A stretch of 38,456 nucleotides of DNA from a virus (taxonomy: Duplodnaviria > Caudoviricetes): positions 1-38,456 of the IMG/VR virus record IMGVR_UViG_3300025674_000129; one strand, given 5' to 3'. The notes under the pieces were generated by a model, which saw nothing but the letters and a program-made list of their open reading frames with translations, had not been told where the DNA came from and did no database searches. A program made the position numbers and the translations under genes. Shown piece by piece: positions 3,264 through 26,844 of the stretch (its first letter is position 1; each line of letters opens with the position of its first letter).

Positions 3264-3275
3264 GACAACCTCCTA

Positions 3276-3797: not shown

Positions 3798-3825
3798 TGT
3801 AGTCTCCTGTCTGGGTTAGTCCTTA

Positions 3826-3841: not shown

Positions 3842-3851
3842 ATCGGTCAGG

Positions 3852-3879
3852 AAAAAGGGCGGCCCCCGAAGGGGCCACC
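3852..3879 (-). terminator. intrinsic terminator after the major capsid gene
   Basis: minus strand GGTGGCCCC-TTCG-GGGGCCGCC-CTTTTT, 16 nt after the capsid stop codon. Confidence 0.85.
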
Positions 3880-3895
3880 AAACTCTTCCTAGCTA

Positions 3896-4804: not shown

Positions 4805-4816
4805 TGCCTAAACCTC

Positions 4817-5395
4817 CTATACGCCAGTGGTGGTAACGTACTGATGACCAACGTTAAATTTAACGATTACATCAGTGAAGCTATCACCAGCCGAACTAGT
4901 TGGCCCATCTACAAAATCAATGATTCGCAGTGGGAGTGTGTTTGTTGTTGCAGCAGTGCTTGCGTCAACAGCGTTCTTGCTTCGACCAATAGAGGTAGAA
5001 CCAGCGGTTTGAACAACCGCTGCGTTGTTACCCAGAGTAGTCTGAGCGAGAGACGCATCGCCTTGCATACGCATCAACACGTTGGGGTCATCAACCACAT
5101 AAGCCACAATGTCACTTGCAGAAGTAGACGCTGGGTATGTTTGGCTGAAAGTCTTTTGGTTTGTGTTGGGATCGGTGTACGCGCAACCAACAAAAACTCC
5201 TACAGGAGTCAAAGTTGCAGTACCCGTGTCCTTTTCAACGACACCATCAGACACCAATTTTACGAAATCTCCGTAAAAAATGGCGGTGCTATAACCACTT
5301 GCAATCTTGATGTGGCGAATCTTCCCGGTAAACGAGCCGCTCGCACTCAAGGTATCAACTGGTTCCGCACCTGTTGGGGCAGCAGAAGTAGCCAT
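4817..5395 (-). CDS. putative capsid decoration/cement protein
   Basis: 192 aa, A/T/S/G-rich, IFYGDFV and GVFVGC.YTDP motifs; directly upstream of the capsid gene. Confidence 0.6.
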   Translation of the reverse strand: MATSAAPTGAEPVDTLSASGSFTGKIRHIKIASGYSTAIFYGDFVKLVSDGVVEKDTGTATLTPVGVFVGCAYTDPNTNQKTFSQTYPASTSASDIVAYVVDDPNVLMRMQGDASLAQTTLGNNAAVVQTAGSTSIGRSKNAVDASTAATTNTLPLRIIDFVDGPTSSAGDSFTDVIVKFNVGHQYVTTTGV

Positions 5396-5436
5396 AATTG
5401 GCCTCCTAGTTAATAATAACTAACCCCTGCTAAGGG

Positions 5437-5889
5437 TTAGCCTTTTCCAAAGGTAGTCCTAGTGCTTCGCTCTGGATTGAGCATCGGCATTCTAGGATCG
5501 TTTTCTCTGAGATAGTTATTGTCAACCGAAGCCATCTGATTTTCAGCAGCCTGCTGGAAGTGTCTTGATCTAGCTTCCATTGTTTCCGCAGGAGCCTTAC
5601 ACAACAGCAATCCGCCAACCTCAATGTTTCCTTGGAAACGTGAGCCTACATCAGACTCAAGCATCAGTTCTGGATGATCTTCCGCCCTTACAGGCTCCCA
5701 TCCTTCCCTGAACATCTTGGAAACGTGAGTGTTGTCAGACTGACCTAACAGTGAAGTCTTAACCCACCGGAACACATAGCCGTCTTGCGGCTTTGGATCT
5801 GGCAGTATGGAAGCTGGCTTCCATGAATCACTTGGTCGTTCAATACTTTCACGAGATTTACTTTCTCTTGGGGTGCGCTCTTCAGACAT
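5437..5889 (-). CDS. head-module hypothetical protein
   Basis: 150 aa; FRWV...REGWEPV...GGLLLCK motifs; between scaffold and capsid genes. Confidence 0.7.
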   Translation of the reverse strand: MSEERTPRESKSRESIERPSDSWKPASILPDPKPQDGYVFRWVKTSLLGQSDNTHVSKMFREGWEPVRAEDHPELMLESDVGSRFQGNIEVGGLLLCKAPAETMEARSRHFQQAAENQMASVDNNYLRENDPRMPMLNPERSTRTTFGKG

Positions 5890-6953
5890 TACGAGGTCTC
5901 CTTAGCGAGTTGCCTCGCGTACTGTTCCGGGGTTAAACCCAGTCTCTTAGCGAGAGAGATCTGAGTAGCCGTTAACCGTAATTTGCGCGGTTTAGCACCG
6001 TTACTCCTTGCGGAGGGTGCCACCACCGACGAGGGCTGACCGGCAGTCACGGATGCGTCACGGCTATATGATTCGCCTTTATCCTGCCAGTCGTATTCTG
6101 GAAACGCGCTTCTTAGGCGCGAATCAATCTGTCTGAAGTACTCAGCACTATTGGGCTGAATACCTCTTTTAATCAATGCTGCATGGGTTCCATACGCAAG
6201 GCTAGTCATTTCTTCATAGCCTTCCTGCATAAACCACGAGTTGCGACCCGCCCAATCTTCCGCTTCAGGGCTTACCTGAGGCTCTGGTTGAGCTTGCTGC
6301 GCCACGCTTTGTGCTGCTTGTTGTGCAATCTGTTGTTGTTGCCAAGCTTCTACCTGCTGCTCTCGCTGCGCTTGATTAGAGGCTAGGTTGTTCTCATACC
6401 TCTCTGCCTCGCCAAACTCAGCTTGTGCTCGATTTAGGCTTTCTTGAGCCGAGATAAGTCGATCTGTGTCGCCTTCCTCGTATGCCTGCTTGTAATTATT
6501 ACGAGCATCTTGCAGTGAAAGTTCCGCCTTAGCCTTAATCTGAGCTACCAAGGCTGCTTCGCCTCGATTGATTAGGGCTTCATTCTCTTGATTACGCTTG
6601 TTTAACTGCTCCGCGACCCGTACCGCTTCTTCCCGCATACGCTCTGCTGCTTCACGCTTCCTGCGCTCTTCATGCTGCTCGTATCGAAGCTTGTTGATTC
6701 GCTTCTGTACCTTGTCGCTGTATCCAGCAAGCTCTTCATCATCATCGTCAATACCGACAGAAGTATCCGAAGCCTCTGCCTTTGGCGGCCTACGATCTTC
6801 TTCAGTCCTTTCATCAATGACTTCAAGCTCGAACTCACCCTGCTCTTCGGGAGACTCGCTAGATTTTTTACCAATCTGCGTCTTGATGCCAAAGAACTTA
6901 TCCTCAGAACTCATGGGCTGTTCTGGTTGTACGTCCATTTCTGCTTCACTCAT
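5889..6953 (-). CDS. putative capsid scaffolding protein
   Basis: 354 aa; acidic N-terminus, coiled-coil centre, C-terminal AKRLGLTPEQYA motif; between portal and capsid genes. Confidence 0.65.
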   Translation of the reverse strand: MSEAEMDVQPEQPMSSEDKFFGIKTQIGKKSSESPEEQGEFELEVIDERTEEDRRPPKAEASDTSVGIDDDDEELAGYSDKVQKRINKLRYEQHEERRKREAAERMREEAVRVAEQLNKRNQENEALINRGEAALVAQIKAKAELSLQDARNNYKQAYEEGDTDRLISAQESLNRAQAEFGEAERYENNLASNQAQREQQVEAWQQQQIAQQAAQSVAQQAQPEPQVSPEAEDWAGRNSWFMQEGYEEMTSLAYGTHAALIKRGIQPNSAEYFRQIDSRLRSAFPEYDWQDKGESYSRDASVTAGQPSSVVAPSARSNGAKPRKLRLTATQISLAKRLGLTPEQYARQLAKETS

Positions 6954-7327
6954 ACCTTAATAATCCCCCTTGGATCTTCTACGACGGCCTCTACGGAGTC
7001 ATCGTTGATTAATCGAAACTCTTTTCCATGAACCTTGAATCTAGTTCCAGAGTAAGAGCGCATGATTATCCAGTCGCCCTCGTTACAGTAAGGGCCATTA
7101 GGGAACCGACTAGGGTCATTGTAAGCATCTGCTCCCATCTTGAGAACCATGCCGACAATAGACCCTACTTCCTCATCGTGCAGAGTGGTTGCAGCCTTTA
7201 GGATGCCGCCCTCAGTTTTTTCGTCGGGGTTTGGTAAAGCAATTAACAGTTTGTAGCCTTGCGGCTCAGGCAACTGATTAGCCTTGCGGGATTCATCTGT
7301 CCCGATATCTTCTAATGCTTCAGACAT
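6950..7327 (-). CDS. groES: co-chaperonin GroES (Cpn10) family protein
   Basis: P.GYKLLI...KTEGGIL...G.VLKMG...GD....YSGT...G.EFRLINDD.V.AVV motifs. Confidence 0.85.
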   Translation of the reverse strand: MSEALEDIGTDESRKANQLPEPQGYKLLIALPNPDEKTEGGILKAATTLHDEEVGSIVGMVLKMGADAYNDPSRFPNGPYCNEGDWIIMRSYSGTRFKVHGKEFRLINDDSVEAVVEDPRGIIKV

Positions 7328-7339
7328 TAGCTTTCCTTT

Positions 7340-7372
7340 CGCACTGGAAATTAGCGTCCAGAGTCGCTTGCG
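7340..7372 (-). promoter_or_regulatory. candidate RNA pseudoknot abutting the groES RBS
   Basis: minus strand CGCA-AGCG-ACU-CUGGA-CGCU-AAUU-UCCAG-UGCG: three complementary segment pairs, two of them crossing. Confidence 0.45.
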
Positions 7373-7387
7373 TTACCTGACGTAACG

Positions 7388-7585
7388 TTATTCAGACTCG
7401 TACTTTTCAGCCAAGTCTAGAATCTCTCTCTCAGCGATGGCTAAACCTTCAATGATTCCACACAACTTAGTGTACTCACTGTAGTCTTTACACGCGCCAC
7501 CGCTAATGAAGTCTGCATATTCGTTCATTTTTTCGCGCAGGTTACCCTGCATGTACTGGAATACGTTCTGAGAACTACTTGTCAT
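7388..7585 (-). CDS. hypothetical protein
   Basis: probable start MTSSSQNV at 7585 overlapping the portal end; Y.EY..LCG.IEGL motif. Confidence 0.65.
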   Translation of the reverse strand: MTSSSQNVFQYMQGNLREKMNEYADFISGGACKDYSEYTKLCGIIEGLAIAEREILDLAEKYESE

Positions 7586-10022
7586 CAAGCGCATCCTGCA
7601 CAAAATCAAGGCCAAGCTTGAATCCTTCTAGCTGCTGCTCACTTTCGTCTTGCGACAGCTTGACCGCGATTCGTTTGTCTTCGATATCTTTCTGTTGCTC
7701 TAGCCGCATGCGATCAAGCTCTGCCTTAACAGCAGCCTTCTGCTGATCAAGCTCAAGCCTACCCATATCAGCTTGCATCCTGCGCTGCGCCTCCATCTCC
7801 TTGATCTGCAACTCTTTTTGCTGCATCTGAAGGATAGGATCTTCTGCCTGTTGCTGCTGCTCCGCAGCTTGCGCCTCTTGCTGGTTCTTGCCTTTGAGTT
7901 GATCCGCTGCAAGTCCTGCAAGCCTAGAGATACGGTACTCAATATCCTCAGGCAGCGGCTCTTCTGGCCCCGGTAGCTCGAATCCAAGCTCTTTCTCGAT
8001 CTCCAACCTGTACTGGAACGCTAAATGTTCCTGTACGTGAGCAGCCATCTCTGCTGCTGCCGAATCTGCGTTGGGACTTTGCGACATAAGCTCCATGACC
8101 TTTGGATCTTCCAGCATAGCCTTGTGCGCCATGATGTGAGACTCGTGATCTTGGTAAACAAACGCCTTAACCGGCTTACCATTGATGATATTCATGTTCT
8201 CAGTGATCGGATCGACTGGAGTCATGTCATCATCGGTGGGAACAAGCTTGTCTGCGTCCCGAATGTTCAGGATTTCCAGCATTTGCCGGTGCAATTGCGG
8301 CATGTCGTACATCTGAGGCGCTTGTTGCGCCAATTGCAGCGCCGCTTGGTACTGCATAATGCGTTGAGCCATCGTTCCTGCGTTAGGATCACTAACTGGA
8401 ATGATATCTACCCTGTCATCGAAGTCAGAAGCCACCAATGGCTCCTTATCTTCGTCATATGGGTACGTTTCAGGCCCAAAATCGCGCACAACGTTTGATA
8501 AAAGGCGCAGTTCCGACCTCATAGAGGCGTGTAACCGCGCTTGAACGGCGCTCATGACCTTCATTGACCGCTCAAGTATGGCTAATGTGGTGCCAACCGG
8601 CGCTTCAGCGTTCATATCGGACGCTTTTACGTCAGCAGCGGACGCAAAACGCCGTCCTTCCTCCACAATGTCGCCCATAAGCTGGTACAAAACCGTGCTT
8701 GGCTCTTTGTAGGGCAAGAAACTGATGTTTTCGCCTATGCTTCCGCCGGGAACGTCCACATCGCGGAACTCTCCGGGCATAATTGGGGTGTCATCACCCT
8801 TGATTCGCAGCCCACGGGCCTTCAAACCACCCGGAAGGTTAGCCAAAGTGCCTGCATCGACCAGTTGTCGCAGCAAAGAGGTGGCAGATTTAGCCAATCC
8901 GCCAATCATGTGGAGCAAACCGAAGCCGTAGAAGCCCAATCCGGGCATATACTGGTAGTGAACGAAGTGCTGACGAGCCATCTTCTGCTCATCTGGCTCA
9001 TACCAGTTCCGTCGAATAGATAAAATGGTGCGAGAAGAGTAATCAATCGTCACGACATACGGGAGCATGATGCCAGTCTGCTCACCCTTCGCCGTATCTT
9101 CAAAACCGGGAAGGTCTAAATGAACATTCATCTCCAATAAGACATGACGATAGTCGAGATCGTAATTGGCAGAGTCGCCAGTAAGCTCGTTGTACTTCTT
9201 TTCGATGTCATCGTAGTCGGGAGAGGGTGCTGGTAATTCCACGTCTGAGTAAAATCCAGCGACCTGAAGCTTGCGTACCTCGTTTGCGCTACGGCGCATA
9301 ACGTGTGTAGCTCTCTCGCACGTCTGTAAGTCTGAAGCTCCATAGCTAACTACAAAGTCTTCTGCCGGTACAAACATGCTGCAAGGTCTGCCCATGTTTG
9401 GATCGTAATAAATCTTGCGGAACGCAGATCCTGCAAGCGGCAAAGAGAACAGAAGTCTTTCCGTCTCGGTGCGATACTCGCTCATCCGCTCAGTCAAAAG
9501 GTAGTTCAGATAATCCTGAACCCGTTCAGCTTGCTCCTGTTTCTCATCGCTTACCCTGCCAACCACAGCGGTCTTAGCTGGGCCAGCGGCAGGGAACAAC
9601 TCTTGGATAGACTGTGACTGAAAGCGAATAACGGCTTCCGTCAAAAGCGGATGGAACACTCCGCAAGCGCCATCCCAAGGGGTGGTGCGGTCTTCATGCT
9701 TGAGTCCTAAAAGATCCAAGCCTTCAATGTACGTGCGCTCCCAGTCTGAACGACTCTCCTTGTCGGACTTGTACTGCCCCACTAGGTCAGTAGCAATGCC
9801 TCGGAGATCACCATCGTCAATGTATTCGGCTAGGTTAGCGTCATGAGGGATCATTCCCGTCAACGAGTCCTGAGGATCAAAGTCGAATATCATCCCCCCG
9901 TCCTCTGTCTCAATAGACACAGATTCTGGGTTAACGATCTCAATCTCTAGATCAGGCTCACCGTCCTGACCCTGAGAAAATATGCTTTGCTCTGGAGTCG
10001 CCAGAGGGCGGTCGATTGCCAT
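7575..10022 (-). CDS. portal protein (P22-like podovirus type)
   Basis: 815 aa downstream of TerL; SR..WE..Y..GL, GLGFYGFGL and PGEFRDVD motifs; Q-rich coiled-coil C-terminus. Confidence 0.85.
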   Translation of the reverse strand: MAIDRPLATPEQSIFSQGQDGEPDLEIEIVNPESVSIETEDGGMIFDFDPQDSLTGMIPHDANLAEYIDDGDLRGIATDLVGQYKSDKESRSDWERTYIEGLDLLGLKHEDRTTPWDGACGVFHPLLTEAVIRFQSQSIQELFPAAGPAKTAVVGRVSDEKQEQAERVQDYLNYLLTERMSEYRTETERLLFSLPLAGSAFRKIYYDPNMGRPCSMFVPAEDFVVSYGASDLQTCERATHVMRRSANEVRKLQVAGFYSDVELPAPSPDYDDIEKKYNELTGDSANYDLDYRHVLLEMNVHLDLPGFEDTAKGEQTGIMLPYVVTIDYSSRTILSIRRNWYEPDEQKMARQHFVHYQYMPGLGFYGFGLLHMIGGLAKSATSLLRQLVDAGTLANLPGGLKARGLRIKGDDTPIMPGEFRDVDVPGGSIGENISFLPYKEPSTVLYQLMGDIVEEGRRFASAADVKASDMNAEAPVGTTLAILERSMKVMSAVQARLHASMRSELRLLSNVVRDFGPETYPYDEDKEPLVASDFDDRVDIIPVSDPNAGTMAQRIMQYQAALQLAQQAPQMYDMPQLHRQMLEILNIRDADKLVPTDDDMTPVDPITENMNIINGKPVKAFVYQDHESHIMAHKAMLEDPKVMELMSQSPNADSAAAEMAAHVQEHLAFQYRLEIEKELGFELPGPEEPLPEDIEYRISRLAGLAADQLKGKNQQEAQAAEQQQQAEDPILQMQQKELQIKEMEAQRRMQADMGRLELDQQKAAVKAELDRMRLEQQKDIEDKRIAVKLSQDESEQQLEGFKLGLDFVQDALDDK

Positions 10023-10298
10023 TTAGCCGTTCTTACCAAAGTCTCGGCTACGAGCATTGCCGTTACCACGCATAACAACGTTGCCGCCTTCTTTGTTCTT
10101 CATCATGGTAGGGCCGCCATTAGCCATCATCTTCGTACTCATTCGTACCTTACCGCCGCCAGCCATCTTGCCTTCGCCATCAGCAGCGTAGAAGGGAACC
10201 ATCTTTCCGCCTTTCTCGACCATAGGCAGCTTGCCGCCAGCTTTGTAGCCTTTGGTCTTCATCTTGCCGCCAGCCATATATCCTTTAGTCTTCTTCAT
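10023..10298 (-). CDS. small basic Gly/Lys/Met-rich protein
   Basis: likely start MKKTKGY at 10298; repeated (M/Y)xxGGK units. Confidence 0.6.
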   Translation of the reverse strand: MKKTKGYMAGGKMKTKGYKAGGKLPMVEKGGKMVPFYAADGEGKMAGGGKVRMSTKMMANGGPTMMKNKEGGNVVMRGNGNARSRDFGKNG

Positions 10299-10974
10299 GG
10301 TCTTCCTTTGAGTAAAGATTATCAAAAACCTGATTAACGTCTAACGTGTAATCCAAGTCCGACTTACTGTAGTGAATATGCTGCGATGGTCTAAAGTCTG
10401 GAGCGCCTTCTCCTGTCTCAAACCACGCTGGATGAGTCACTCTAACCCGATTATTCGGTAAAGCAACGATATTTCCAGTCCATTTCCCGGCATCCAAAAG
10501 CTCCATTACATGGCTTTGCTTATGCTGCGCTGGGTCATCAGCTATTTCGTTGTCCGTGTAATCCACGGTAAACATGTATTTTGCTGGGTACATCTCGCCG
10601 TCGATCTTAGCAAGCCACGGACACGGCGTACAACGATCTAAGACATACACCGAATGATCTCTCGAACTACAATCCCACGGCTGGGCAGCCCACGTCGGCA
10701 TGGGGTCAGGCCATTCCTCAAAAGGAGTGTCACCCACTAGCGCAGTCAAAGGCATACGTGCCCACATCGCGCCACCGTGAACGTTAGGCTCGTCGGTGTC
10801 GTATGTCTCTGCGCCCGTAAAAATCACCTGAAAGCTCAGGCTCCTGCATGGCATAGTCGTTACCGCTACTGCCATCGCGTGGAGAAACTCGCCGTGATAC
10901 TTGCGGTGGTTGTATGTGTACTCTCGCCGCACCCAGCATTTGAAGTATGGGATGTTGCTTTGGAGATATGCCAT
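10285..10974 (-). CDS. hypothetical phage protein
   Basis: likely start MAYLQSNIP at 10974 coupled to the upstream stop; W/H/C-rich with PNNR motif. Confidence 0.7.
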   Translation of the reverse strand: MAYLQSNIPYFKCWVRREYTYNHRKYHGEFLHAMAVAVTTMPCRSLSFQVIFTGAETYDTDEPNVHGGAMWARMPLTALVGDTPFEEWPDPMPTWAAQPWDCSSRDHSVYVLDRCTPCPWLAKIDGEMYPAKYMFTVDYTDNEIADDPAQHKQSHVMELLDAGKWTGNIVALPNNRVRVTHPAWFETGEGAPDFRPSQHIHYSKSDLDYTLDVNQVFDNLYSKEDHEED

Positions 10975-11690
10975 TACGCAGAGTCTCCGTAGAACCTTTC
11001 TTCCCATTTCTTGTGCCTACGGATAGGCTCCTTGAAGTAGGGCAGGAATCTAGCGATGTACAAAACAAATCGGTTAACCCATCTCAACGGCATAGGCAGT
11101 GGTCTCAGGTAATCCAGAAACAACACTATACGATATCCGTTGGTCATATTCACGGCAAAATGCTCGTATGTGTCATCAAACACTACGGCCTTGCCTTCTT
11201 CCCACCGATACTCTTGCTTATCGACCACAAGGACACATCCCTTCCCATCGGTTGGAACCTGTATCCCCATGTGAATTCTTAGAACGCCGCACCACGGCCC
11301 ATTGTGTGGCATCAGCATTTTGTTTGGCCCGATCACAGAGAAGTAGGCAGATACCAAGTTCTTATCTGAATCTAGGATTTTCATGGTCTCTGGGAACTCT
11401 TGGCAGTTCCTCTCGAATCGCACATTCCCCGCTTTGAGGAAAAACATCTTCCACTTGTCATCGTCTGAGATGAACGTCTGATCCGGGCTGATCTCTTGGA
11501 ACGGAGCAAACTCATTGAGCCGATCCTGCATCTGCTCGAACTCAGCCTTGATCACATCGTAGTTCTCTTCAAGAACGTTAGTGAAAGGAAAGTCTTTATT
11601 CTCGAAGAATACCTTGTCACCAAAGGTGGAGTACCTTCGGAAGAACGGCTTCAACACCGTATCTATCACGTACCCTTTGACTTCAATCAA
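10974..11690 (-). CDS. aspartyl/asparaginyl beta-hydroxylase family (2OG-Fe(II)) protein
   Basis: W..F.L...G, FS...P....PH.G, LR.H.G, W.EG....FDDTYEH...N....R.VLFLD motifs. Confidence 0.85.
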   Translation of the reverse strand: MIEVKGYVIDTVLKPFFRRYSTFGDKVFFENKDFPFTNVLEENYDVIKAEFEQMQDRLNEFAPFQEISPDQTFISDDDKWKMFFLKAGNVRFERNCQEFPETMKILDSDKNLVSAYFSVIGPNKMLMPHNGPWCGVLRIHMGIQVPTDGKGCVLVVDKQEYRWEEGKAVVFDDTYEHFAVNMTNGYRIVLFLDYLRPLPMPLRWVNRFVLYIARFLPYFKEPIRRHKKWEERFYGDSA

Positions 11691-13192
11691 TAGTACGAGG
11701 CCCGTTTAGGGTAGTGAGGCTCATCTTCTTCATCGGAGTTTAGTCTCAAGAACCCGCCTTGGCGGAACCTAAGCAGTGCCTGTGTGGATGAGTCAACAAG
11801 GTCATCGTGCTCACCAGCCGGGAAAGCAGCGAACTCTTCGATCACTTCCTCGGCAAACCTCGTTCCGGGTGCCCATACAATGCCAGACGCAAACAGGTCT
11901 GAGACCGCATTCACACGACTGATCTTGTCGTTACCTCTGGACGGGGTGTACTCCGCAACCGGGATACCCATCGCTCGTAGCTCAAAGATCAGCGGGGTTC
12001 CCGCAGCTTTAGCTTCCACGATAGTGGCATCAGGTTGCCAGTCGTTATAGAACTCCATTGCCGCTTTCTTCAGTTCTGGAAACTCAAGACGCTCTTTGTG
12101 GGCATCCAGCAGTATGATATTCGGCTGGGTGATCCCATCACTGTCGGGTTTGTAGAAAACGCCCCACGTAGTGCAAGCAGAGAAGTCGGAACGTTGCGTC
12201 TTCAAGAACGCTGTATCCCACGACTGAATTATAAATTCACACGGCGGCGGACGATCATCGTCCCATCTTCGCCACCATTCTCTTTTGACCAGCGCCCCTT
12301 CCTCTGAGGTGGGGTCTTGCTGGTACTGGGCATTCCATTTGGGTGCCGGTAGTTCGTTCTGTAGGGAGGTTAGCTCCTCTAAAGACCAGAACTCAGGCCA
12401 CAGCGCCTTGCCAGATGGCATGATCGCTGGGAACTCAATCACCTCCCATTCATCGGTGCCTGCCCGTTGAACGGATGATTTGATGATCTGTCCCGTCAAA
12501 TCCCGCTTGTGCCATCGGGTCATAACCACAACAATGGCTCCTCCCGGCTGCAAACGCTGTCGAGGCCCAGAGGTATACCACTCGTATACTCGGTCAAACA
12601 CGCCGGGATCTGCACTCTGACCTTCTTGCTCAGAATGCGGGTCATCGATAATCAGCAAGTCGGCACCTTTACCAGTGACCGCACCACCAACACCAATAGC
12701 GAAGTATTCGCCGTTCTTACTGGTACTCCATCGACCAGCAGCCTTTGAGTCAGATCTCAAGCCTAAGTCGGGGAATACGCTCTTGTAGTCCTCTGCATCG
12801 ACAAGGTTACGAACCTTACGACCAAAACCTACAGACAACTCGGCGGTATGCGCCGTTTGGATAATCTTCTTTTCGGGGTACTTGCCAAGGAACCATGCTG
12901 GCAGGAGATACGAAGCAAACTCGGACTTCGTGTGTCTGGGCGGCATGTTAATGATTAGCCGCTTTAATTCCCCTCTAGCTACACGCTCGAAAGCATCAGC
13001 CATTATCTTGTGGTGCCGTCCCTCGATGAAGGCAGGCCAAACGTAGTTTACAAATCCCATGAACTCTTCACGGGCACGTTCTTTCTTCTCTGTCTCTTCT
13101 AAGGCTTCAAGAAGCTCTAGGATTTCTTTCTGCTCTTCTACCGGAAGATCAGTCACTCCTTTGAGCAAATCTTTGTCGATTCTTTTTGACAT
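11687..13192 (-). CDS. terL: terminase large subunit
   Basis: MPPRHTKS Walker A-like, LLIIDDP Walker B, SWDTA and HDDLVD nuclease motifs. Confidence 0.95.
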   Translation of the reverse strand: MSKRIDKDLLKGVTDLPVEEQKEILELLEALEETEKKERAREEFMGFVNYVWPAFIEGRHHKIMADAFERVARGELKRLIINMPPRHTKSEFASYLLPAWFLGKYPEKKIIQTAHTAELSVGFGRKVRNLVDAEDYKSVFPDLGLRSDSKAAGRWSTSKNGEYFAIGVGGAVTGKGADLLIIDDPHSEQEGQSADPGVFDRVYEWYTSGPRQRLQPGGAIVVVMTRWHKRDLTGQIIKSSVQRAGTDEWEVIEFPAIMPSGKALWPEFWSLEELTSLQNELPAPKWNAQYQQDPTSEEGALVKREWWRRWDDDRPPPCEFIIQSWDTAFLKTQRSDFSACTTWGVFYKPDSDGITQPNIILLDAHKERLEFPELKKAAMEFYNDWQPDATIVEAKAAGTPLIFELRAMGIPVAEYTPSRGNDKISRVNAVSDLFASGIVWAPGTRFAEEVIEEFAAFPAGEHDDLVDSSTQALLRFRQGGFLRLNSDEEDEPHYPKRASYY

Positions 13193-13201
13193 GTGAATCC
13201 A

Positions 13202-13316
13202 TAGAACGTTCTACAGATAGAACGTTCTTCTGTAGAACGTTAATCCTAAAACGATAACCTGAAGCCCCGTAGTACCCCGGAGGGGCGAATGAACGTTCAA
13301 CCTGTAGAACGTTCTA
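13202..13316. repeat. cluster 1 of TAGAACGTTCTA palindromic repeats (5 copies)
   Basis: copies at 13202, 13218, 13233, 13289 and 13305; 15-16 bp spacing within groups. Confidence 0.9.
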
Positions 13317-13330
13317 TGTCACCTTTGGTG

Positions 13331-13367: not shown

Positions 13368-13639
13368 CAAAAAAGTACGCCAATTTTTTTAGAAATTTTT
13401 TTTTGGCTCTGGGACTCCTAGCCTTTGTGCCACACAAAAAAGGGGTTCTTCGTTGTGCGTTATGCTATCTGTCAGAAAAAAGGGGTAATCGTTTGAGCGT
13501 TTCACTATGTATATATGGTGACGCACTCGCACGCATTAGGGGGGGTGGGGGTGTGCGTGATTTGCGCGATCCTCTCAAAAAAAGACCGCCTTACTCTAAC
13601 CGTTGTTATTCGTTGTGCGTCTTACGTTAACCGTTAGCT

Positions 13640-14249: not shown

Positions 14250-14610
14250 TTGACATCGGCGACGGGGAGCCGGGGCGCAGCGCGCTCGAATCCCGCCACC
14301 TCCTCACGGTGAAGCTCGACCCCTACGGGGCAACGCTGCCGAGGTGACCCTCCCAGACTGGGCAAGTTCTGGTGCTAGATAGGACAACGTCGGCCCGTAC
14401 CGCAACGGGCAGCGCCGACAGACTCCAAGCCTAGCCGCGCCGCGCAGCGTGGAGCCTAAACTGATGGTGAAGCCTAGGGTTGAACGGCTAGTGAAGTGAG
14501 TCCCGAAACGGGCAGCACTGCTAGACCGGCCCGACAGCCTGACATCAGCCAACGAACTCCGAACCGCGCAGGATTTATCAGAGCGCACTGGCAATTGGGC
14601 TAGTGCTTTC
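14250..14610 (+). ncRNA. candidate large structured non-coding RNA / early leader
   Basis: GC-rich, no credible ORF, many nested helices (see findings); strand inferred from the downstream operon and G-U pairs. Confidence 0.5.
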
Positions 14611-14637
14611 GAGTAAGTCACAACCGGAGACCGTGCT

Positions 14638-14694
14638 ATGGAAACTCAAGATCACAATGATTTCGAGGACTTCATGCGAGAGCAAAACCTTTAA
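14638..14694 (+). CDS. 18-aa acidic peptide (not in the ORF track)
   Basis: GGAG 8 nt upstream of ATG; METQDHNDFEDFMREQNL*. Confidence 0.4.
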   Translation: METQDHNDFEDFMREQNL

Positions 14695-14725
14695 CCCAAC
14701 CCCCCACGCAAATAGGAGAAAACCA

Positions 14726-14935
14726 ATGCGTAACACTTACAACCACACCCCGCTGGAGCAGGCCCGAATGGACGTGCTGCAAGCGATCTCAGACATGGCA
14801 GAAGAGGATGTGTACCACAACCACCATGCCGAGACCGAGGGCTTCAACGCCTCCAAGCGCAAGCACCTTGCGAAGATGTACTACAAGCTCGCGGATCAGT
14901 GGGATCTCGAACCCGCTGCCGTCTTGGAAATATAG
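14726..14935 (+). CDS. hypothetical early protein
   Basis: AGGAG RBS then MRNTYNHTPL, 69 aa. Confidence 0.65.
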   Translation: MRNTYNHTPLEQARMDVLQAISDMAEEDVYHNHHAETEGFNASKRKHLAKMYYKLADQWDLEPAAVLEI

Positions 14936-14995
14936 TCGAAACCGCCTCTGGCGGTCTGCATTGACTGGCCCCGATGCACTGATGATGACAGGCCA
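14935..14995 (+). ncRNA. hammerhead ribozyme, type II, with pseudoknot
   Basis: GUC-GAAA-CCGCC(UCU)GGCGG-UC^-UGCAU(loop)AUGCA-CUGAUGA-U-GAC; loop I UGGCC complements 3' GGCCA; predicted cleavage after C14956. Confidence 0.85.
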
Positions 14996-15020
14996 AACTT
15001 AAACTTTAGGAGAACGTGCG

Positions 15021-15959
15021 ATGCGCGATGTATATCAGGAAATCACCGACAGAATCGTGGCTCAGATGGAGTCTGGCGACAGCAATTGGATCAACCCGAT
15101 GGCAGGCTCTGGCCTTGGCGGAGGCTGGCCTACAAACGCCACCACCGGCAACCGATACAACGGTATCAACGTGATGCTGCTGATGGGCCTCACGGTATTC
15201 AATGGCAAAGAACATGTACCCGCCGCCAGCCAACAATGGGCGACATTCAAGCAATGGGAGTCCAAGGGCTGCCGAGTCGTGAGTGGCAAGCGCAGCGGCA
15301 ATATGATCGTCTTTTTCAAGAAGCTGGAAGTGAAGGATCGCAAAGACCCTACCGGCGAAACCAAAATACATATTCCATATCTCAAGGCATCCACTGTCTT
15401 TTCTGCCGAGCAGGTCGAGGGCGAGTATGCCGAGCAGTTCAAGGTCGAGCGCAAGCCGCTGACTGAGGTCGAGCAGATCGCAGCCGTCAACGACTGGGTG
15501 ACCAACTACGTCAATGGCACCGATCTGACAATCGACTACAACGAGACAGGCCGTGCGTTCTACCGCCCAATCACCGACTCGATCCACATGCCACCCGCCG
15601 ATGGATTCGAGGCTACCGCAACGTCAACCGCTACCGAGTGCTTCCACTCGACCCAGCTACACGAGTTGACTCACGCCACTGGTAACAAGGCGCGTCTGAA
15701 CCGACTCGACATCAAGAACAACGACGGCTACGCCTTCGAGGAGTTGGTGGCTGAACTGGGGGCCGCGTTCCAATGCCTGACGCTGGGAGTCAGCGCCGAG
15801 CCACGCGAGGATCACGCCAAGTACCTCAACAATTGGATCGCCGCGCTGAAGAATGACAAGCGTCTGATCTACAAGGCCGCCAAGCTTGCACAGCAGGCTG
15901 TCGATCACATCGCGGAGCACCAACCCTCCGCAGAACAATCAACTGAAGAGGCCGCGTAA
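15021..15959 (+). CDS. ardC: ArdC-family antirestriction / ssDNA-binding protein with zincin-like domain
   Basis: YQEITD.I, Y.GIN...L, W.TF.QW, AFY.P..D.I..P, HELTH.TG, YAFEELVAELGAAF, HA.YL..W motifs. Confidence 0.9.
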   Translation: MRDVYQEITDRIVAQMESGDSNWINPMAGSGLGGGWPTNATTGNRYNGINVMLLMGLTVFNGKEHVPAASQQWATFKQWESKGCRVVSGKRSGNMIVFFKKLEVKDRKDPTGETKIHIPYLKASTVFSAEQVEGEYAEQFKVERKPLTEVEQIAAVNDWVTNYVNGTDLTIDYNETGRAFYRPITDSIHMPPADGFEATATSTATECFHSTQLHELTHATGNKARLNRLDIKNNDGYAFEELVAELGAAFQCLTLGVSAEPREDHAKYLNNWIAALKNDKRLIYKAAKLAQQAVDHIAEHQPSAEQSTEEAA

Positions 15960-15981
15960 GCGGCCCGAGGGCATCGAAATG
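15947..15981 (+). repeat. 35-bp gene-junction repeat, copy 1
   Basis: AGAGGCCGCGTAAGCGGCCCGAGGGCATCGAAATG; 30/35 identical to 16353-16387. Confidence 0.8.
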
Positions 15982-16365
15982 AAAGTACATGTATTCCAAT
16001 TCAACCTGACAGACATGGAACGAGTCGAGCTAGAGCACCTTGGCTGGGAAGCCACGGATCGCATCAGCCAGTGGGGTGAAAAGCGCCTGCTTCAGATCGC
16101 TGGCGACGAGGCAGTGGCAGAGTTCGCCGCCGCGAACATCGACGAGTACGAGTTGGTCGTAACCGTCGAAATGCCAGACACCGACGAATGGACTGCGCTG
16201 GAGTTGGCCTACGGTGAGATGAATCACTGGGCTAACCCAGACAACATCACCCGTCACCGGATGTGCGCCAGCATGTCTGTCGGTGACATCTGCGAGATCA
16301 ACGGGCAACTGTTTGTCTGCGCCACGTTTGGATTCGATAAGTTAAATCTAGGAGAGGCCGCATAA
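15979..16365 (+). CDS. YodL-like domain protein
   Basis: start MKVHVFQ after an RBS; C-terminal SMSVGDI.....F.C..FGF resembles the YodL signature. Confidence 0.55.
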   Translation: MKVHVFQFNLTDMERVELEHLGWEATDRISQWGEKRLLQIAGDEAVAEFAAANIDEYELVVTVEMPDTDEWTALELAYGEMNHWANPDNITRHRMCASMSVGDICEINGQLFVCATFGFDKLNLGEAA

Positions 16366-16387
16366 GCGGCCCAAGGGGATCAACATG
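16353..16387 (+). repeat. 35-bp gene-junction repeat, copy 2
   Basis: AGAGGCCGCATAAGCGGCCCAAGGGGATCAACATG. Confidence 0.8.
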
Positions 16388-16768
16388 TTAGTGACACTGA
16401 ACGATTCGCCAATCTTTGACGGGATCTGGCACTCACGAAACGGCGATGCTCACGTCATCCCTGAGGTCTGGGTGGTATGCCCGAAGTGCAGCGGTGAGGG
16501 CACCACCGGCAACCCTGCCTTCGACGGCATGAGCCTGTCAGAGATAGACGATTGTGACCGAGACGATTTCATGGATGGCTACATGTCAGGCCGATACGAC
16601 GTGGCCTGCTCCCGATGCAAAGGGCGCACCACCGTCAGAGGGTATGACCTGTCGCAGCTAACGCCAGCACTGCTCGATGAGTACTGGGCTGACGCACGGG
16701 AGATGGAAGAACAACGAGCCGCTGACTGGCGGACACATCAAGCAGAGATGGGGATAAGAGCATGGTAG
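16385..16768 (+). CDS. DnaJ-type zinc-finger protein
   Basis: CPKCSGEG and CSRCKG motifs. Confidence 0.65.
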   Translation: MLVTLNDSPIFDGIWHSRNGDAHVIPEVWVVCPKCSGEGTTGNPAFDGMSLSEIDDCDRDDFMDGYMSGRYDVACSRCKGRTTVRGYDLSQLTPALLDEYWADAREMEEQRAADWRTHQAEMGIRAW

Positions 16769-17169
16769 AGACAGTCGAAACATGGGAGGTGGTGGACGGC
16801 GATGACCGACGCCAGTTCAGCAGCAGATTCGACGCGCTACGCTTCGGCGTCAGATCGGAGGGCATGGTGAAAATCAAACTGTGGCACCACACAGGTGAGA
16901 GGCTAGCCAATGGCTTTGCTTACAAGGGTGAGCACAGCCTCAAGATGGTGGAGTCGGTGACTCTCTATGAGTATGCCGACCACCCGTGGCTGCAATTTGG
17001 ATTTGATGGGTGGCGTGATCTGCAAGAGCAGGTAGCTAAGGACATTGCGCGTGGCGAGGGTGTTATCCGTGACCCAGCGCGTGGATGGGCCGGTGTCGTG
17101 CTATTGGATTACATGCTACAGGCCCAGCAGCTAATGGATGAATCAGGAATCAGGAGGATCGATCTATGA
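16762..17169 (+). CDS. hypothetical protein
   Basis: 135-aa ORF overlapping both neighbours by a few bases. Confidence 0.6.
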   Translation: MVETVETWEVVDGDDRRQFSSRFDALRFGVRSEGMVKIKLWHHTGERLANGFAYKGEHSLKMVESVTLYEYADHPWLQFGFDGWRDLQEQVAKDIARGEGVIRDPARGWAGVVLLDYMLQAQQLMDESGIRRIDL

Positions 17170-17393
17170 ACGCATTGTATACCGATGGCGACGGGCGCTG
17201 GCACTCCCAGTACATAGCCATGACCAAGGGCATGAGCCTCGACTCACTGCTCCACGTCATGCATGACTGTGCCGAAGCGATGGCTGCCAACCCAGACAAT
17301 CCTAAGTGTGGTCAGTATGCCGACGAGCGCCACTACTGCGCGATGGAATTAGAGCGCCGACGCAAGGCATTCAATGCCAAATTTTCCAACTGA
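17166..17393 (+). CDS. hypothetical protein
   Basis: AGGAGG RBS, ATGA coupling, 75 aa; its TGA stop lies within the ribozyme core. Confidence 0.65.
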   Translation: MNALYTDGDGRWHSQYIAMTKGMSLDSLLHVMHDCAEAMAANPDNPKCGQYADERHYCAMELERRRKAFNAKFSN

Positions 17394-17444
17394 TGAGACC
17401 AGATGGTGACTGGTCGAAACGCCGCGAGGCGTCTTGGATAACCA
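17385..17444 (+). ncRNA. hammerhead ribozyme, type I, with pseudoknot
   Basis: UCCAA-CUGAUGA-GACCAG(AUGGUGA)CUGGUC-GAAA-CGCC(GCGA)GGCG-UC^-UUGGA; loop II UGGU complements 3' ACCA; predicted cleavage after C17433. Confidence 0.92.
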
Positions 17445-17458
17445 ACATAGGAGACGTA

Positions 17459-17626
17459 ATGGAAACGGATCAGTGGCTAGAGCGCCGAGAGTTCTGGCAA
17501 ACACAATACAGGGGCGACAACGACAGCGAGTACCAGATCTATCTGGGCTGCGCTGACGATGGTGAGGGCAACGACTTCACCACGGGCAAGCCCCTAAAGA
17601 CATACGAGGAATGGCTTAACAGCTAG
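17459..17626 (+). CDS. hypothetical protein
   Basis: AGGAG RBS then METDQWLERR, 55 aa. Confidence 0.65.
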   Translation: METDQWLERREFWQTQYRGDNDSEYQIYLGCADDGEGNDFTTGKPLKTYEEWLNS

Positions 17627-17670
17627 ACCTCAGTCTCGAACCCTGCGGGGGGTTTGTTACTCAACCCCGC

Positions 17671-17699
17671 TTCAAATACTACGTGAGTCGTGGTACGCT
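17671..17699 (+). promoter_or_regulatory. putative sigma70-type promoter
   Basis: TTCAAA-17 nt-TACGCT with an extended -10 TG; upstream of the RBS of 17730. Confidence 0.4.
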
Positions 17700-17729
17700 G
17701 CACTCACATTATCAATCAGGAGACGGACT

Positions 17730-18068
17730 ATGAATTTCACAGAAGACAATTACTGGAGCAGCCGAGGCCGGTATCAGAGCTTGGCAAACAGGCTTGTCGA
17801 TTTGATCCCATCAATGGGCGAGGTCGAGAACGCCGAACAGCGACCAGAGCTAGAGCTATTCCGACTGGCGCAGAACTACTACTACGACATCTTCAACAAC
17901 GGCGTATGCAATTACGAGGAAGAGATCTGGGAGATGTTCCGTGTCACACCGAAAGACGCTGACATCGAGTCAGACGATGAGAATCTTTTCAAACGAACCG
18001 AGCCAGTCATGGACTCAATCATTCTTGATGCATACGCAGCGGAGTTCACCAACAAGGGGGGTCTGTAA
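17730..18068 (+). CDS. hypothetical protein
   Basis: AGGAG RBS, 112 aa, YYDIFNNG motif. Confidence 0.7.
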   Translation: MNFTEDNYWSSRGRYQSLANRLVDLIPSMGEVENAEQRPELELFRLAQNYYYDIFNNGVCNYEEEIWEMFRVTPKDADIESDDENLFKRTEPVMDSIILDAYAAEFTNKGGL

Positions 18069-18571
18069 TGACTATCAAATCAAAGCGCGGCCCTAACGTG
18101 ACACCCGACGAGCACAAGCTCGTTGTGAAGTTTGCAAAGCAGTGCCTGCGGGAGATCTGCAAGAAGCAATATGAGGTCGAGTATCAAGGCAAGCCTGTCG
18201 TGTATGCCGAAGCTATCAAGCGGCTTCGGGTAAAGACAAAGCATAGCGGTCAAAGAAGTTACGGCTTCAGTGATCTCATTTCCATCGACATGGGTGAATA
18301 CCGCCGAGGCTTAACCTCGTTCACTGAGTACCGCTCGTTTGCTAATGACCCAGTGATCGGCAACATCAACGACTGCGATGACCGTGAACTGCTGCTCAAG
18401 TGCTTGGTTGCCCATGAGGTGGCGCACCACATCCAGATGAAGTACGGGCTGTACACCCGCTATCTCAAGAACACTTTCCACAAGCCGCATGGCGATGCGT
18501 TCAAGACGATCTATCGTGAGCTGCGGCGCACGTTGATCAACCCATACATCGAGAGCAGGGAGGCTGCGTGA
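18068..18571 (+). CDS. SprT-like zinc metalloprotease-domain protein
   Basis: HEVAHH (HExxH) followed by PHG..FK. Confidence 0.65.
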   Translation: MTIKSKRGPNVTPDEHKLVVKFAKQCLREICKKQYEVEYQGKPVVYAEAIKRLRVKTKHSGQRSYGFSDLISIDMGEYRRGLTSFTEYRSFANDPVIGNINDCDDRELLLKCLVAHEVAHHIQMKYGLYTRYLKNTFHKPHGDAFKTIYRELRRTLINPYIESREAA

Positions 18572-19767
18572 TGGAAGGAGATCTATACCAGCATGTCATG
18601 CATGCCCTTAGGAACCCTGAGAAGCGCATTCTTGGGGCCACCAAGGGGACACATCCCGATGGCCCAAGGGTATTGTCTAAGACCTTTGGCAATCGTCTGA
18701 AGGTGGCGCGCAAGTTCGACATCGATGACGCTCTGCTGGAGCGGGTGTTTCAAGAGCCTAGCTGGGCCGAGTTGACTAAGGACAACGGCAACCTGCCGAT
18801 CAAGACGATCACCCGCAACGTGGTGGAAGCCGAGCAGGAACTGAGACTGCCGTTCAAGGATTGTTGGATTGAGTTCAATGCGAAGACGTACAACGCGCAT
18901 GTATCTGATTTCGACTGGGCGACGGGGCTTGTAGGCGTTAGCGGTACCGTTGACAGGCTCTTCGAGTTTGAGAAGGCGGGTATATTCTTGACCGAGAAGT
19001 TTGATGGTCAGATAGATATGCATCTGTTCTTTAGTCTTGACGGCGACAATAGAATATACATGGCGATTCTGGGCCGGAGCGTCAGGAATGGGCCAACCGA
19101 AAAGCCGTTGAGTGAGGTGGGCATTCGGCACGTTTCGCTATTGATGTACGGCGTAGACTTTCAAAACGAGCCATTGTCTGAGGCTTGCAGCGACTACCTT
19201 GACTTGCTCCACAACTCTCGCCTCCATCAAATAAGAGAGGTGTTTGGTAATGAATACACCGACAAGGCATTCGAGAATTTTGTCGAGCCGTGGGCACCGT
19301 ACTATGTGCGGATCTCATGGGAGATACTGCGCGTTCTGAACTACCCGTGGGTAGTCAGAGAGCAGGCCCGATTCGAGAGATCAAAGAAGGGCCGCAGTCC
19401 AAAGGTCACGCCCCGTGATTCGTATTACCGCTGCAAGATCAAGCTACCCAAGCCTAATGGCGTGGAGACTCGGCAGCTAGAGCCACGCGACGAGGCATAC
19501 GGCAAGCGCCTGCATCAGGTGCGTGGGCACTGGCGTGTGTACCGTGATGAACACGGCGACTTCGTCAAGCGTACATGGATCAGAGAGCATAGGCGTGGCG
19601 ATGCCAAGCTAGGCGTAGTGCTAAAGGACTATGTGCTGACCGGCGAAGGTACGTCTTCCGCCCAAAAAGGTACATCTTGCGCCCAAAAAGGTACGTCTTG
19701 CGCCCAAACTGGCGGCAACGTATCATCAACAAACACATCACAACCAACGGAGAACGTGAATGGATAA
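18568..19767 (+). CDS. hypothetical phage protein with C-terminal 7-aa repeats
   Basis: 399 aa; RLHQVRGHWR...WI..H.RGD motif; three GTS(S/C)AQ(K/T) units. Confidence 0.7.
   Translation: MMEGDLYQHVMHALRNPEKRILGATKGTHPDGPRVLSKTFGNRLKVARKFDIDDALLERVFQEPSWAELTKDNGNLPIKTITRNVVEAEQELRLPFKDCWIEFNAKTYNAHVSDFDWATGLVGVSGTVDRLFEFEKAGIFLTEKFDGQIDMHLFFSLDGDNRIYMAILGRSVRNGPTEKPLSEVGIRHVSLLMYGVDFQNEPLSEACSDYLDLLHNSRLHQIREVFGNEYTDKAFENFVEPWAPYYVRISWEILRVLNYPWVVREQARFERSKKGRSPKVTPRDSYYRCKIKLPKPNGVETRQLEPRDEAYGKRLHQVRGHWRVYRDEHGDFVKRTWIREHRRGDAKLGVVLKDYVLTGEGTSSAQKGTSCAQKGTSCAQTGGNVSSTNTSQPTENVNG
19646..19708 (+). repeat. 3 x 21-bp tandem repeat
   Basis: AAGGTACRTCTTSCGCCCAAA at 19646, 19667 and 19688. Confidence 0.9.
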
Positions 19768-26570: not shown

Positions 26571-26844
26571 GAATGACCGAGAGGTGTACGAAAAGATGGT
26601 AGCCATCTGGTCTATCACTCGGATACCACAGTTGCAGATGAATCCCACCGTCGCAAATGTTTCATTTAAGTGGGAACGAGGAGAGATCGCTGCCATACCG
26701 TTCACCATGTTTGATGAACTGGCACCGATAGAGATCGTGATTCTTTTAGAAAAACAGATGGAGAAAAACTATGGCATCAACGCCACAAAATTCAGAGCCG
26801 ACCTTTCAGGATATTTGGCAGACCCTTTCAGCAGTCAACGTTGA
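26563..26844 (+). CDS. hypothetical protein
   Basis: GGGAG RBS; start MIENDRE at 26563. Confidence 0.5.
   Translation: MIENDREVYEKMVAIWSITRIPQLQMNPTVANVSFKWERGEIAAIPFTMFDELAPIEIVILLEKQMEKNYGINATKFRADLSGYLADPFSSQR

What the first reader, a model, noticed from the sequence alone, without database searches (positions are those of the whole stretch)
14935..17444. Ribozyme-punctuated early operon: two different hammerheads bracket a five-gene anti-host cassette
Seen: two hammerheads of different topology and unrelated stem sequence, on the same strand, each overlapping a stop codon and followed by an RBS. Cleavage after 14956 and 17433 would excise a 2477-nt RNA encoding ArdC, the YodL-like protein, the Zn-finger protein and two unknowns. 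Established: such a fragment has 5'-OH and 2',3'-cyclic phosphate ends, the substrate of RtcB ligase; T7 segments its early mRNA with host RNase III. Inference: host-independent processing of the early transcript, possibly yielding a circular, exonuclease-resistant polycistronic mRNA. Phage hammerheads are known, but their role is largely unexplained.
Basis: partly seen in the sequence, partly recalled or inferred. Interest (0 to 1): 0.88.

Follow-up and report, generated by a model that had tools for sequence, protein, structure and literature searches.

The report
Two hammerheads punctuate phage early operon
A tailed phage carries two hammerhead ribozyme sequences at gene boundaries of its predicted first operon, where they likely cut the long early message into shorter linear ones with standard new front ends; this layout has been known in phages since 2011, and the proposed RNA circle found no support here.

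Summary
Observation confirmed: a type II (14935-14995) and a type I (17385-17444) hammerhead, both with full cores and pseudoknots, both on a stop codon and ahead of an RBS; predicted cuts after 14956 and 17433 (2477 nt). The reading is only partly supported. Segmenting the early mRNA is the best explanation, but it is published: Perreault 2011 showed clustered prophage hammerheads, including three around the anti-restriction gene ardA, cleaving in vitro and in E. coli, and found no circles. The block is not a fixed cassette: its genes are gained, lost and reordered in relatives, and only ArdC has an anti-defence annotation. In 14 relatives picked by a leader motif all have a hammerhead, but 7 have only one. 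Types I, II and III replace each other at the first site, often in front of unrelated ArdC genes. The fragment ends pair no better than foreign ends, and no RtcB was found in 5 related viral records. Circularisation: about 6%. Possibly new: neighbouring type I copies in other phages keep an interchangeable open stem (24 of 40 pairs). This scan has reported the same kind of array on other DNA several times. New member of a known kind.

The parts
14257..14295 (+). Invariant motif at the predicted 5' end of the early transcript (hairpin with possible pseudoknot); relatives have a sigma-70 -10 box just upstream, the window's own -10 is weak
   Evidence: TATAAT ends 6-8 nt before the motif in 10 of 25 loci that carry it; no + strand promoter called in the window
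14257..14637 (+). Conserved non-coding early leader, no Rfam family
   Evidence: fold no more stable than shuffles (z 0.01)
14638..14694 (+). 18-aa micro-ORF; in L004 and L006 its stop codon abuts HH1 directly
14726..14935 (+). 69-aa ORF of unknown function; its TAG overlaps HH1 by one base; absent here in L004/L005/L006, moved downstream of HH2 in L006
14935..14995 (+). HH1: type II hammerhead; stem III 6 bp, stem I 5-7 bp, open stem II 3 bp, one extra U after A9, 5-bp pseudoknot (14966-14970 with 14991-14995); predicted cut after 14956
15021..15959 (+). ArdC-family protein, 312 aa (ssDNA-binding N domain plus zincin domain, HELTH motif)
   Evidence: PF08401 and PF18818 over cut-off, phrog_7245, PDB 6I89/6SNA E 6e-47 over residues 3-303
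15947..15986 (+). First copy of a 40-nt repeat with a GC hairpin over the stop codon
   Evidence: D4
15979..16365 (+). 128-aa ORF, YodL-like as a lead only; absent in L005 and L006, the gap running between the two repeats
16353..16392 (+). Second copy of the 40-nt repeat (83% identical, 406 nt on)
16385..16768 (+). 127-aa ORF with two CxxCxG motifs (likely Zn-binding); replaced in L005
16762..17169 (+). 135-aa ORF of unknown function
   Evidence: no family in Pfam, PHROGs, NCBIfam, PADLOC
17166..17393 (+). 75-aa ORF of unknown function; its TGA lies in the core of HH2; travels with a type I ribozyme in L095
17385..17444 (+). HH2: type I hammerhead; open stem I 5-6 bp, stem II 6 bp, stem III 5 bp, loop II/tail pseudoknot of 4 bp; predicted cut after 17433
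17459..17626 (+). 55-aa ORF whose message would start 25 nt upstream after the HH2 cut

Best explanation
The two motifs are hammerhead ribozymes that likely cut the phage's early polycistronic mRNA at gene boundaries, so that each downstream gene block would get a standard 5'-OH front end joined to its own ribosome-binding site; the 2477-nt piece between them would be a linear by-product of two independent cuts, not a designed cassette. Steps. Shown in sequence: full cores, covarying stems and pseudoknots; position on a stop codon and 25-64 nt ahead of a start; same strand as the early genes. Inferred: one transcript from a promoter near 14250; cleavage during or soon after transcription; the new ends (5'-OH, with the stem I hairpin left on the ardC message) slow 5'-end-dependent decay and shield translation from whatever gene lies upstream, as the synthetic RiboJ part does. 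This would let the phage swap early genes freely and still express ArdC fast. The role parallels RNase III sites in T7 messages, without the host enzyme.
For: Motifs. Covariation in 10 type I homologues: 140 of 140 cells paired, 10 of 14 pairs with changes on both sides, including a pseudoknot pair; slid controls 24-46% paired. Own loop-tail pairing of 4 bp or more in 116 of 179 type II motifs against 18% with foreign tails. Geometry: 116 of 232 unique phage hammerheads both abut a stop and have an RBS-start within 45 nt, against 1-2% for random positions; 2 of 232 lie inside a long ORF. Placement: 11 of 11 calls in terminase loci lie on the early side (234 kb), 0 on the structural side (371 kb); 39 of 39 calls in ardC loci are on the ardC strand. 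Type exchange at the first site among 25 leader-bearing loci: II in 10, I in 7, III in 4, none in 4 that are cut short, so the cut is kept and the topology is not. ArdC genes only 33-39% alike follow types I, II and III. Same ribozyme with different neighbours: L016/L019/L022/L030, L103/L107, window against L004/L006. Prior experiments: three tandem arrays cleaved in vitro, the ardA array in E. coli (PMC3088659); RiboJ raises transcript about twofold and protein two- to tenfold (PMC6206723).
Against: No cleavage, transcript or end was observed for this phage. The window's own promoter is weak by consensus. HH1's predicted minimum-energy fold is an alternative (-19.3 against -18.0 kcal/mol without the pseudoknot), and HH2 scores under the Rfam cut-off. 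Folding predicts no change in RBS accessibility on cleavage (0.45 to 0.48; 0.57 to 0.57), so a translation gain by unmasking is not supported. Many related phages do without: 9 of 15 terminase loci with 5 kb or more of early side had no call, 28 of 38 ArdC clusters had none, 4 of 4 cultured-phage stretches had none. Cleavage can also speed decay, as for glmS (PMC6765202), and the host is unknown. Stabilisation by 5'-OH ends is my recalled knowledge of E. coli RNase E, not a result here.
Confidence: 0.6

Rival explanations
1. The cuts act as timers: they would expose ends that speed decay of one side and so shut early genes down or set their relative levels.
For: glmS cleavage lowers expression (PMC6765202, passages); T7 RNase sites give both falls and rises in read cover downstream (PMC6938266, passages); fragments might differ in stability, as proposed in the review.
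Against: The cut-to-start distance is tight (type I median 30 nt, type II 56 nt) and the spacer is A-rich with an RBS, which looks built to translate the 3' product; hairpins are left on both products (sequence).
Confidence: 0.15
2. The motifs are kept mainly as DNA joints: short repeats at which early gene modules would recombine (the phage encodes a Sak annealing protein), with cleavage a side effect.
For: Same ribozyme, different neighbours; a gene indel between 40-nt repeats inside the block; Sak at 26771-27463; 105 of 109 adjacent pairs are of one type; neighbouring type I copies keep an interchangeable open stem in 24 of 40 pairs against 8 and 7 of 40 for the hairpin stems, as chimeras made by crossover would need.
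Against: Catalytic cores and pseudoknots are kept by compensatory change, which recombination alone does not need; the window's two motifs share little sequence; single hammerheads are common.
Confidence: 0.1
3. The 2477-nt fragment would be ligated (host RtcB or a re-formed ribozyme) into a stable circular polycistronic mRNA.
For: End chemistry fits RtcB (established). The junction could re-form a chimeric type II hammerhead with a 3-bp stem II. A second lineage brackets an ardC-led 2242-nt block with types III and I. Open stem I is interchangeable within type I arrays of other phages.
Against: One hammerhead only in 7 of 14 leader-picked loci with 3.5 kb or more downstream (6 of 10 distinct layouts) and in 3 of 3 near-complete relatives. 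Native ends pair at -20.5 kcal/mol; 66 of 127 and 146 of 175 foreign partners pair as well or better. The chimeric junction is 7.7 kcal/mol worse than HH2's own stem II; in L442 it would have a 1-bp stem. No RtcB in 5 of 5 viral records, 3 of them 90% complete or more. Circles and spliced products were sought and not detected in 2011 (data not shown).
Confidence: 0.06
4. The first cut serves the upstream piece: it would release the conserved structured leader as a discrete RNA, and later hammerheads are optional copies.
For: All 14 leader-bearing loci with enough sequence have a hammerhead downstream; in 20 of 21 loci with a call the first cut lies 190-1230 nt from the motif.
Against: The distance varies sixfold and usually takes in one or more ORFs; one locus has its first at 2894 nt; arrays of up to 9 elsewhere flank single genes.
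Confidence: 0.06
5. One or both motifs are inactive relics in this genome.
For: Competing fold for HH1; L004 has a changed base in stem II.
Against: Both are conserved while flanking genes diverge to 78-93%; the extra U after A9 occurs in 50 of 179 type II motifs and a U there sped cleavage in a viroid hammerhead (PMC3705267, passage).
Confidence: 0.03

Closest known systems
Clustered hammerheads flanking genes in prophages (Perreault et al. 2011, PMC3088659; sections 6 and 8 read whole, other passages by search)
   Same: Several hammerheads on one strand around single genes or short blocks with inconstant gene identity; pseudoknotted type II; an anti-restriction gene right behind a ribozyme (ardA in Agrobacterium tumefaciens and three Legionella strains); processing, splicing and circles all proposed.
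   Different: Here the anti-restriction gene is ardC, an unrelated family; the carrier is a free phage contig; the pair is of mixed type (4 of 109 adjacent pairs in my sample); activity is untested.
Rfam Hammerhead_II (RF02276) and Hammerhead_1 (RF00163)
   Same: Core, three stems, topology; HH1 passes the family cut-off.
   Different: HH2 is under the cut-off (30.8 against 34 bits); HH1 has an extra U after A9.
RiboJ insulator (synthetic; PMC6206723, passages read)
   Same: A hammerhead ahead of an RBS that removes upstream RNA and leaves a standard hairpin 5' end.
   Different: Engineered, placed behind a promoter; here natural and placed between genes. Works like it; not a member.
T7 RNase III processing sites (PMC6938266, passages read; the role of the site before gene 0.3 is recalled, from no call)
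   Same: Cuts that divide phage polycistronic messages.
   Different: Needs a host enzyme and leaves 5'-phosphate/3'-OH ends; hammerheads need none and leave 5'-OH/cyclic phosphate.
Retrozymes (PMC4918200, abstract read)
   Same: Two hammerheads delimit an RNA that, in retrozymes, becomes circular.
   Different: There the ribozymes lie in two long direct repeats around non-coding RNA in eukaryotes; here they are unrelated, of two types, around coding genes, with no repeat.
ArdC of IncW plasmids R388/pSa (PDB 6I89, 6SNA; PMC8744291, passage read)
   Same: Both domains over the whole length, HExxH motif.
   Different: Phage-borne; anti-restriction activity untested here.

Membership tests
Hammerhead ribozyme (HH1, type II) | CUGANGA and GAAA core, UH cut site, three stems | tested here: met
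   one extra U after A9, a known tolerated variant
Hammerhead ribozyme (HH1, type II) | Rfam RF02276 gathering score | tested here: met
   41.9 against 37 bits
Hammerhead ribozyme (HH1, type II) | Loop I to 3' tail pseudoknot | tested here: met
   5 bp; compensatory change in L060
Hammerhead ribozyme (HH2, type I) | Core, UH site, three stems with covariation | tested here: met
Hammerhead ribozyme (HH2, type I) | Rfam RF00163 gathering score | tested here: not met
   30.8 against 34 bits, E 7.7e-4; class membership rests on the descriptor and covariation, not on this family's cut-off
Hammerhead ribozyme (both) | Self-cleavage at the predicted site | not testable with these tools
   needs an assay or raw RNA reads
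Clustered phage/prophage hammerheads (Perreault 2011) | Several hammerheads, one strand, between genes of a phage operon | tested here: met
Clustered phage/prophage hammerheads (Perreault 2011) | Flanked genes not constant | tested here: met
Clustered phage/prophage hammerheads (Perreault 2011) | One polycistronic transcript across the sites | tested here: inconclusive
   promoter inferred from relatives; no terminator-like site on + before 17634; no RNA data
Retrozyme / ribozyme-made circular RNA | Two like ribozymes in direct repeats so that the junction re-forms one | tested here: not met
   types differ; no repeat spans them
Retrozyme / ribozyme-made circular RNA | Ends held together for ligation | tested here: not met
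Retrozyme / ribozyme-made circular RNA | Junction seen in RNA | not testable with these tools
   no RNA run holds the stretch
ArdC | ArdcN plus zincin-like domain, similarity to solved ArdC | tested here: met
ArdC | Relief of type I restriction | not testable with these tools
   needs an assay
YodL (PF14191) | Pfam match | tested here: not met
   no hit at E<=10; Atlas lead only

The most novel reading that the evidence does not exclude
Phage hammerheads are cut-and-rejoin joints: the released gene blocks are re-ligated into circular or gene-skipping messages, which is why neighbouring type I copies keep their open stem interchangeable while their hairpin stems diverge, and the ardC block here becomes a 2477-nt circular mRNA that keeps an anti-restriction protein in production.
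Probability: 0.06. Interest if true: 0.88.

Novelty: new member of a known kind. Interest (0 to 1): 0.35.

Why it matters
The purpose of self-cleaving ribozymes in bacteria and phages is still open (PMC6765202). This locus does not settle it, but its clade is a useful natural experiment: three hammerhead topologies replace each other at one operon position, unrelated ardC genes keep landing behind that position (echoing ardA in the 2011 paper), and sister genomes with one or two ribozymes exist. A two-construct reporter test (active or dead HH1 ahead of ardC) would tell stabilisation from decay. The open-stem pattern in type I arrays was not in the passages I read and gives a testable handle on re-ligation or recombination.

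Tried and rejected
RNA evidence: no RNA holder listed for 14400-18100. Four runs laid as contigs: one 261-nt contig at depth 2.1 from a library that may be DNA covers 17379-17639, no joints; on 1-13200 only short diverged pieces of other genomes. Neither says anything about expression or junctions. Promoter scan: 1 site against 7.3 expected, none on +. Other ribozyme classes: none at E<=1 in the window and none over cut-off in 8 related loci, which also missed three type I motifs that the descriptor finds there, so Rfam is the less sensitive tool here. HDV-like, twister and pistol readings of the leader were considered by eye from recalled consensus and dropped, as the loops are not conserved. 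Cultured phages: no hammerhead in four stretches (DSL-LC04, 023Pt_psg01, CRP-804, EXVC031P), so no ready model host. A special hammerhead-ArdC link from the ribozyme side: only 1 of 201 pattern-picked loci had a hit to this ArdC; among 130 downstream ORFs Pfam named 16, with ArdA 2, DUF932 4, phi29-type SSB 3. RBS unmasking by cleavage: not predicted. RNAalifold of the leader on an automatic alignment of 17 rows gave almost no consensus. The 69-aa ORF was first scanned one base out of frame (and the gene maps); Pfam, PHROGs and tblastn were redone in frame, NCBIfam and PADLOC were not. A paper search for T7 early mRNA processing found nothing.
Full report
1. What the window is. The 38,456-base window is the whole of its virus record. 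It holds capsid, portal and terminase genes on the minus strand, a block of small plus-strand genes from about 14,640, and primase-helicase, exonuclease and Sak genes. The nearest cultured terminases are those of Pelagibacter phage HTVC027P, DSL-LC04 and 023Pt_psg01 at 55-60%. The host is unknown. A record with identical proteins is 50.2 kb and rated 87% complete (G001), so the window is a fragment.

2. Rfam finds a type II hammerhead at 14934-14997 (41.9 bits, over the cut-off) and a type I at 17384-17439 (30.8 bits, under it). My descriptor finds the same two at score 16; 0 of 200 shuffles reach 14. Cuts fall after 14956 and 17433, 2477 nt apart. HH1 has a 3-bp open stem II, an extra U after A9 and a 5-bp pseudoknot; HH2 has a 4-bp loop II/tail pseudoknot. 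The extra U occurs in 50 of 179 unique type II motifs; in a viroid hammerhead a U at that place raised the rate three- to fourfold (PMC3705267, passage). In 10 hand-picked type I homologues all 140 cells pair and 10 of 14 pairs show two-sided changes (related sequences, so not a probability). Caveat: HH1's predicted minimum fold is an alternative, 1.3 kcal/mol better than the hammerhead fold without its pseudoknot. Both motifs sit on stop codons and ahead of an RBS as described.

3. The genes. ArdC is secure. Its plasmid relative counters a type I restriction system (PMC8744291, passage). The other four have no family over cut-off in Pfam, PHROGs, NCBIfam or PADLOC; YodL is a lead from the Atlas only. 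'Anti-host cassette' therefore rests on one gene. The block is unstable: L005 and L006 lack the YodL-like gene, the gap running between two 40-nt repeats; L005 has another gene in place of the Zn-finger; the 69-aa upstream gene is absent before HH1 in L004, L005 and L006, where a micro-ORF's stop abuts the ribozyme instead. In L095 the 75-aa gene and its type I ribozyme stand first in the operon, with no hammerhead upstream.

4. The clade. To sample relatives without selecting on ribozymes I used the terminase (80 loci kept of 600 matched, scan cut short), ArdC (80 of 114) and a leader motif (24 stretches). In terminase loci 11 of 11 hammerhead calls lie on the early side and strand, 0 in 371 kb of the structural side; 6 of 15 loci with 5 kb or more of early side have one. 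Three relatives 98-99% complete have exactly one hammerhead each, between the small terminase and the primase-helicase. Of 25 sequences with the leader motif (window included; L428 dropped for lacking it), the first hammerhead is type II in 10, type I in 7, type III in 4, and missing in 4 that end within 1.2 kb. Of the 14 with 3.5 kb or more downstream, 14 have one or more and 7 have two; as distinct layouts, 4 of 10 have two. Ten of the 25 show TATAAT 6-8 nt before the motif, which places the early promoter near 14250; the window's own -10 is weak. ArdC genes 33-39% alike lie directly behind types I (L107), II (window family, L447) and III (L442, L443). Among 38 ArdC clusters, 9 have a hammerhead within 250 nt of the gene and 10 within the locus (flanks are short in some). 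From the ribozyme side the link is weak: 1 of 201 loci. L442 is the one independent case of an ardC-led block between two different types (2242 nt, other genes unrelated).

5. The wider pattern. Of 232 unique motifs with enough flank, 167 have an RBS and start within 45 nt, 143 abut a stop, 116 both (1-2% at random), and 2 lie inside a long ORF (simple ORF rule). The unit is thus 'stop, ribozyme, A-rich spacer, RBS, start', and the window's 2477-nt piece is near the long end of the range (183-2765 nt).

6. The circle. For: the end chemistry; a chimeric type II could form at the junction; L442; and the open-stem pattern of type I arrays (24 of 40 against 4% between loci; hairpin stems 8 and 7 of 40; 12 of 19 families). 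Against: single hammerheads are as common as pairs; the ends pair no better than foreign ends (66 of 127 and 146 of 175 as good or better); the chimera is 7.7 kcal/mol worse than HH2's own stem II; no RtcB in 5 of 5 viral records (host RtcB stays possible); the open-stem pattern is equally expected from DNA crossover between copies, is uninformative for type II (62% within, 67% between) and does not apply to this mixed pair. No RNA data bear on it.

7. What is known. Perreault et al. 2011 (PMC3088659; sections 6 and 8 read whole, other passages by search; figures and supplements not seen, and they hold the types and contexts of the tested arrays) state that multiple hammerheads flank genes or short blocks in prophages, propose processing to operon- or gene-length mRNAs, name spliced or circular products as alternatives that they could not detect, show three arrays cleaving in vitro and the ardA array in E. 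coli, and note ardA behind a hammerhead in three Legionella strains. A 2019 review (PMC6765202, passages) and a 2023 paper (PMC10085705, passages) say the purpose is still unknown. My searches listed no paper showing circles from phage hammerhead pairs, nor one on ardC or on open-stem matching; I saw most of these only as listings, and the library lacks most subscription journals. This scan has noted the same kind of array on other DNA and a look-alike of the leader; I formed my reading before those look-ups, and they are not evidence.

8. Mechanism and verdict. Most likely (0.6) each ribozyme cuts on its own and gives the next gene block a standard front end that shields it from upstream context and from 5'-end-dependent decay, as RiboJ does (PMC6206723, passages), in the role that RNase III sites have in T7 (PMC6938266, passages). 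Shown: motifs, covariation, placement, exchange of types and neighbours. Inferred: co-transcription, cleavage, effect on stability. Rivals: decay timer 0.15, DNA joints 0.10, circle 0.06, leader release 0.06, inactive 0.03. The finding is real and well read, but it is a new member of a kind described in 2011, and a sparse one. Interest 0.35.

Noticed in passing
window 14257-14637: Conserved non-coding leader at the predicted start of the early transcript: invariant 16-nt hairpin plus a 7-nt motif that could form a pseudoknot, a second hairpin with variable loop, and two copies of an internal motif. Found in 24 viral stretches by pattern; no Rfam family.
   Followed up: partly
type I arrays, e.g. 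L063, L069, L095, L165, L169, L228: Neighbouring type I hammerheads keep an interchangeable open stem I (24 of 40 pairs; 12 of 19 families) while stems II and III diverge (8 and 7 of 40); between loci 4%, or 22% when matched on the first 3 nt against 24 of 28 within. Fits RNA re-ligation or DNA crossover alike.
   Followed up: partly
L169, L335 (9 each), L333, L286, L060: Dense hammerhead arrays, fragments from 183 to 2765 nt, mostly one small gene each.
   Followed up: partly
L442 962-3215: Second lineage with an ardC-led block between a type III and a type I hammerhead; the block also holds a PAPS-reductase-like gene.
   Followed up: partly
window 15947-15986 and 16353-16392: GC hairpin repeats over stop codons of genes ending in EAA; a similar hairpin follows ardC in G002; the YodL-like gene is gained or lost between them.
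   Followed up: partly
window 14934-14939 with 14961-14966: A helix that competes with HH1's stem I and includes the upstream stop codon; a terminating ribosome could shift the balance. The hammerhead fold is the minimum in L006 and L091 but not in the window or L005.
   Followed up: partly
window 13200-13318 and 13433-13508: 28-nt inverted repeat (93% complementary) and a 36-nt direct repeat between the two terminase genes; possible packaging or origin signals.
   Followed up: no
window 3795-3852 (-): Weak Mu-gpT-DE match after the capsid gene (25 bits); the homologue in L107 passes the cut-off.
   Followed up: no
window 28904-37147 (-): 2747-aa ORF matching only PHROGs of unknown function.
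   Followed up: no
window 19646-19708: Three tandem 21-nt repeats in the 3' end of the 399-aa early gene.
   Followed up: no
CRP-804 gene 1 (L410), HTVC011P 577-1461: ArdC homologues stand at or near the start of the genome record in two cultured phages; in CRP-804 it is labelled a MarR regulator.
   Followed up: no
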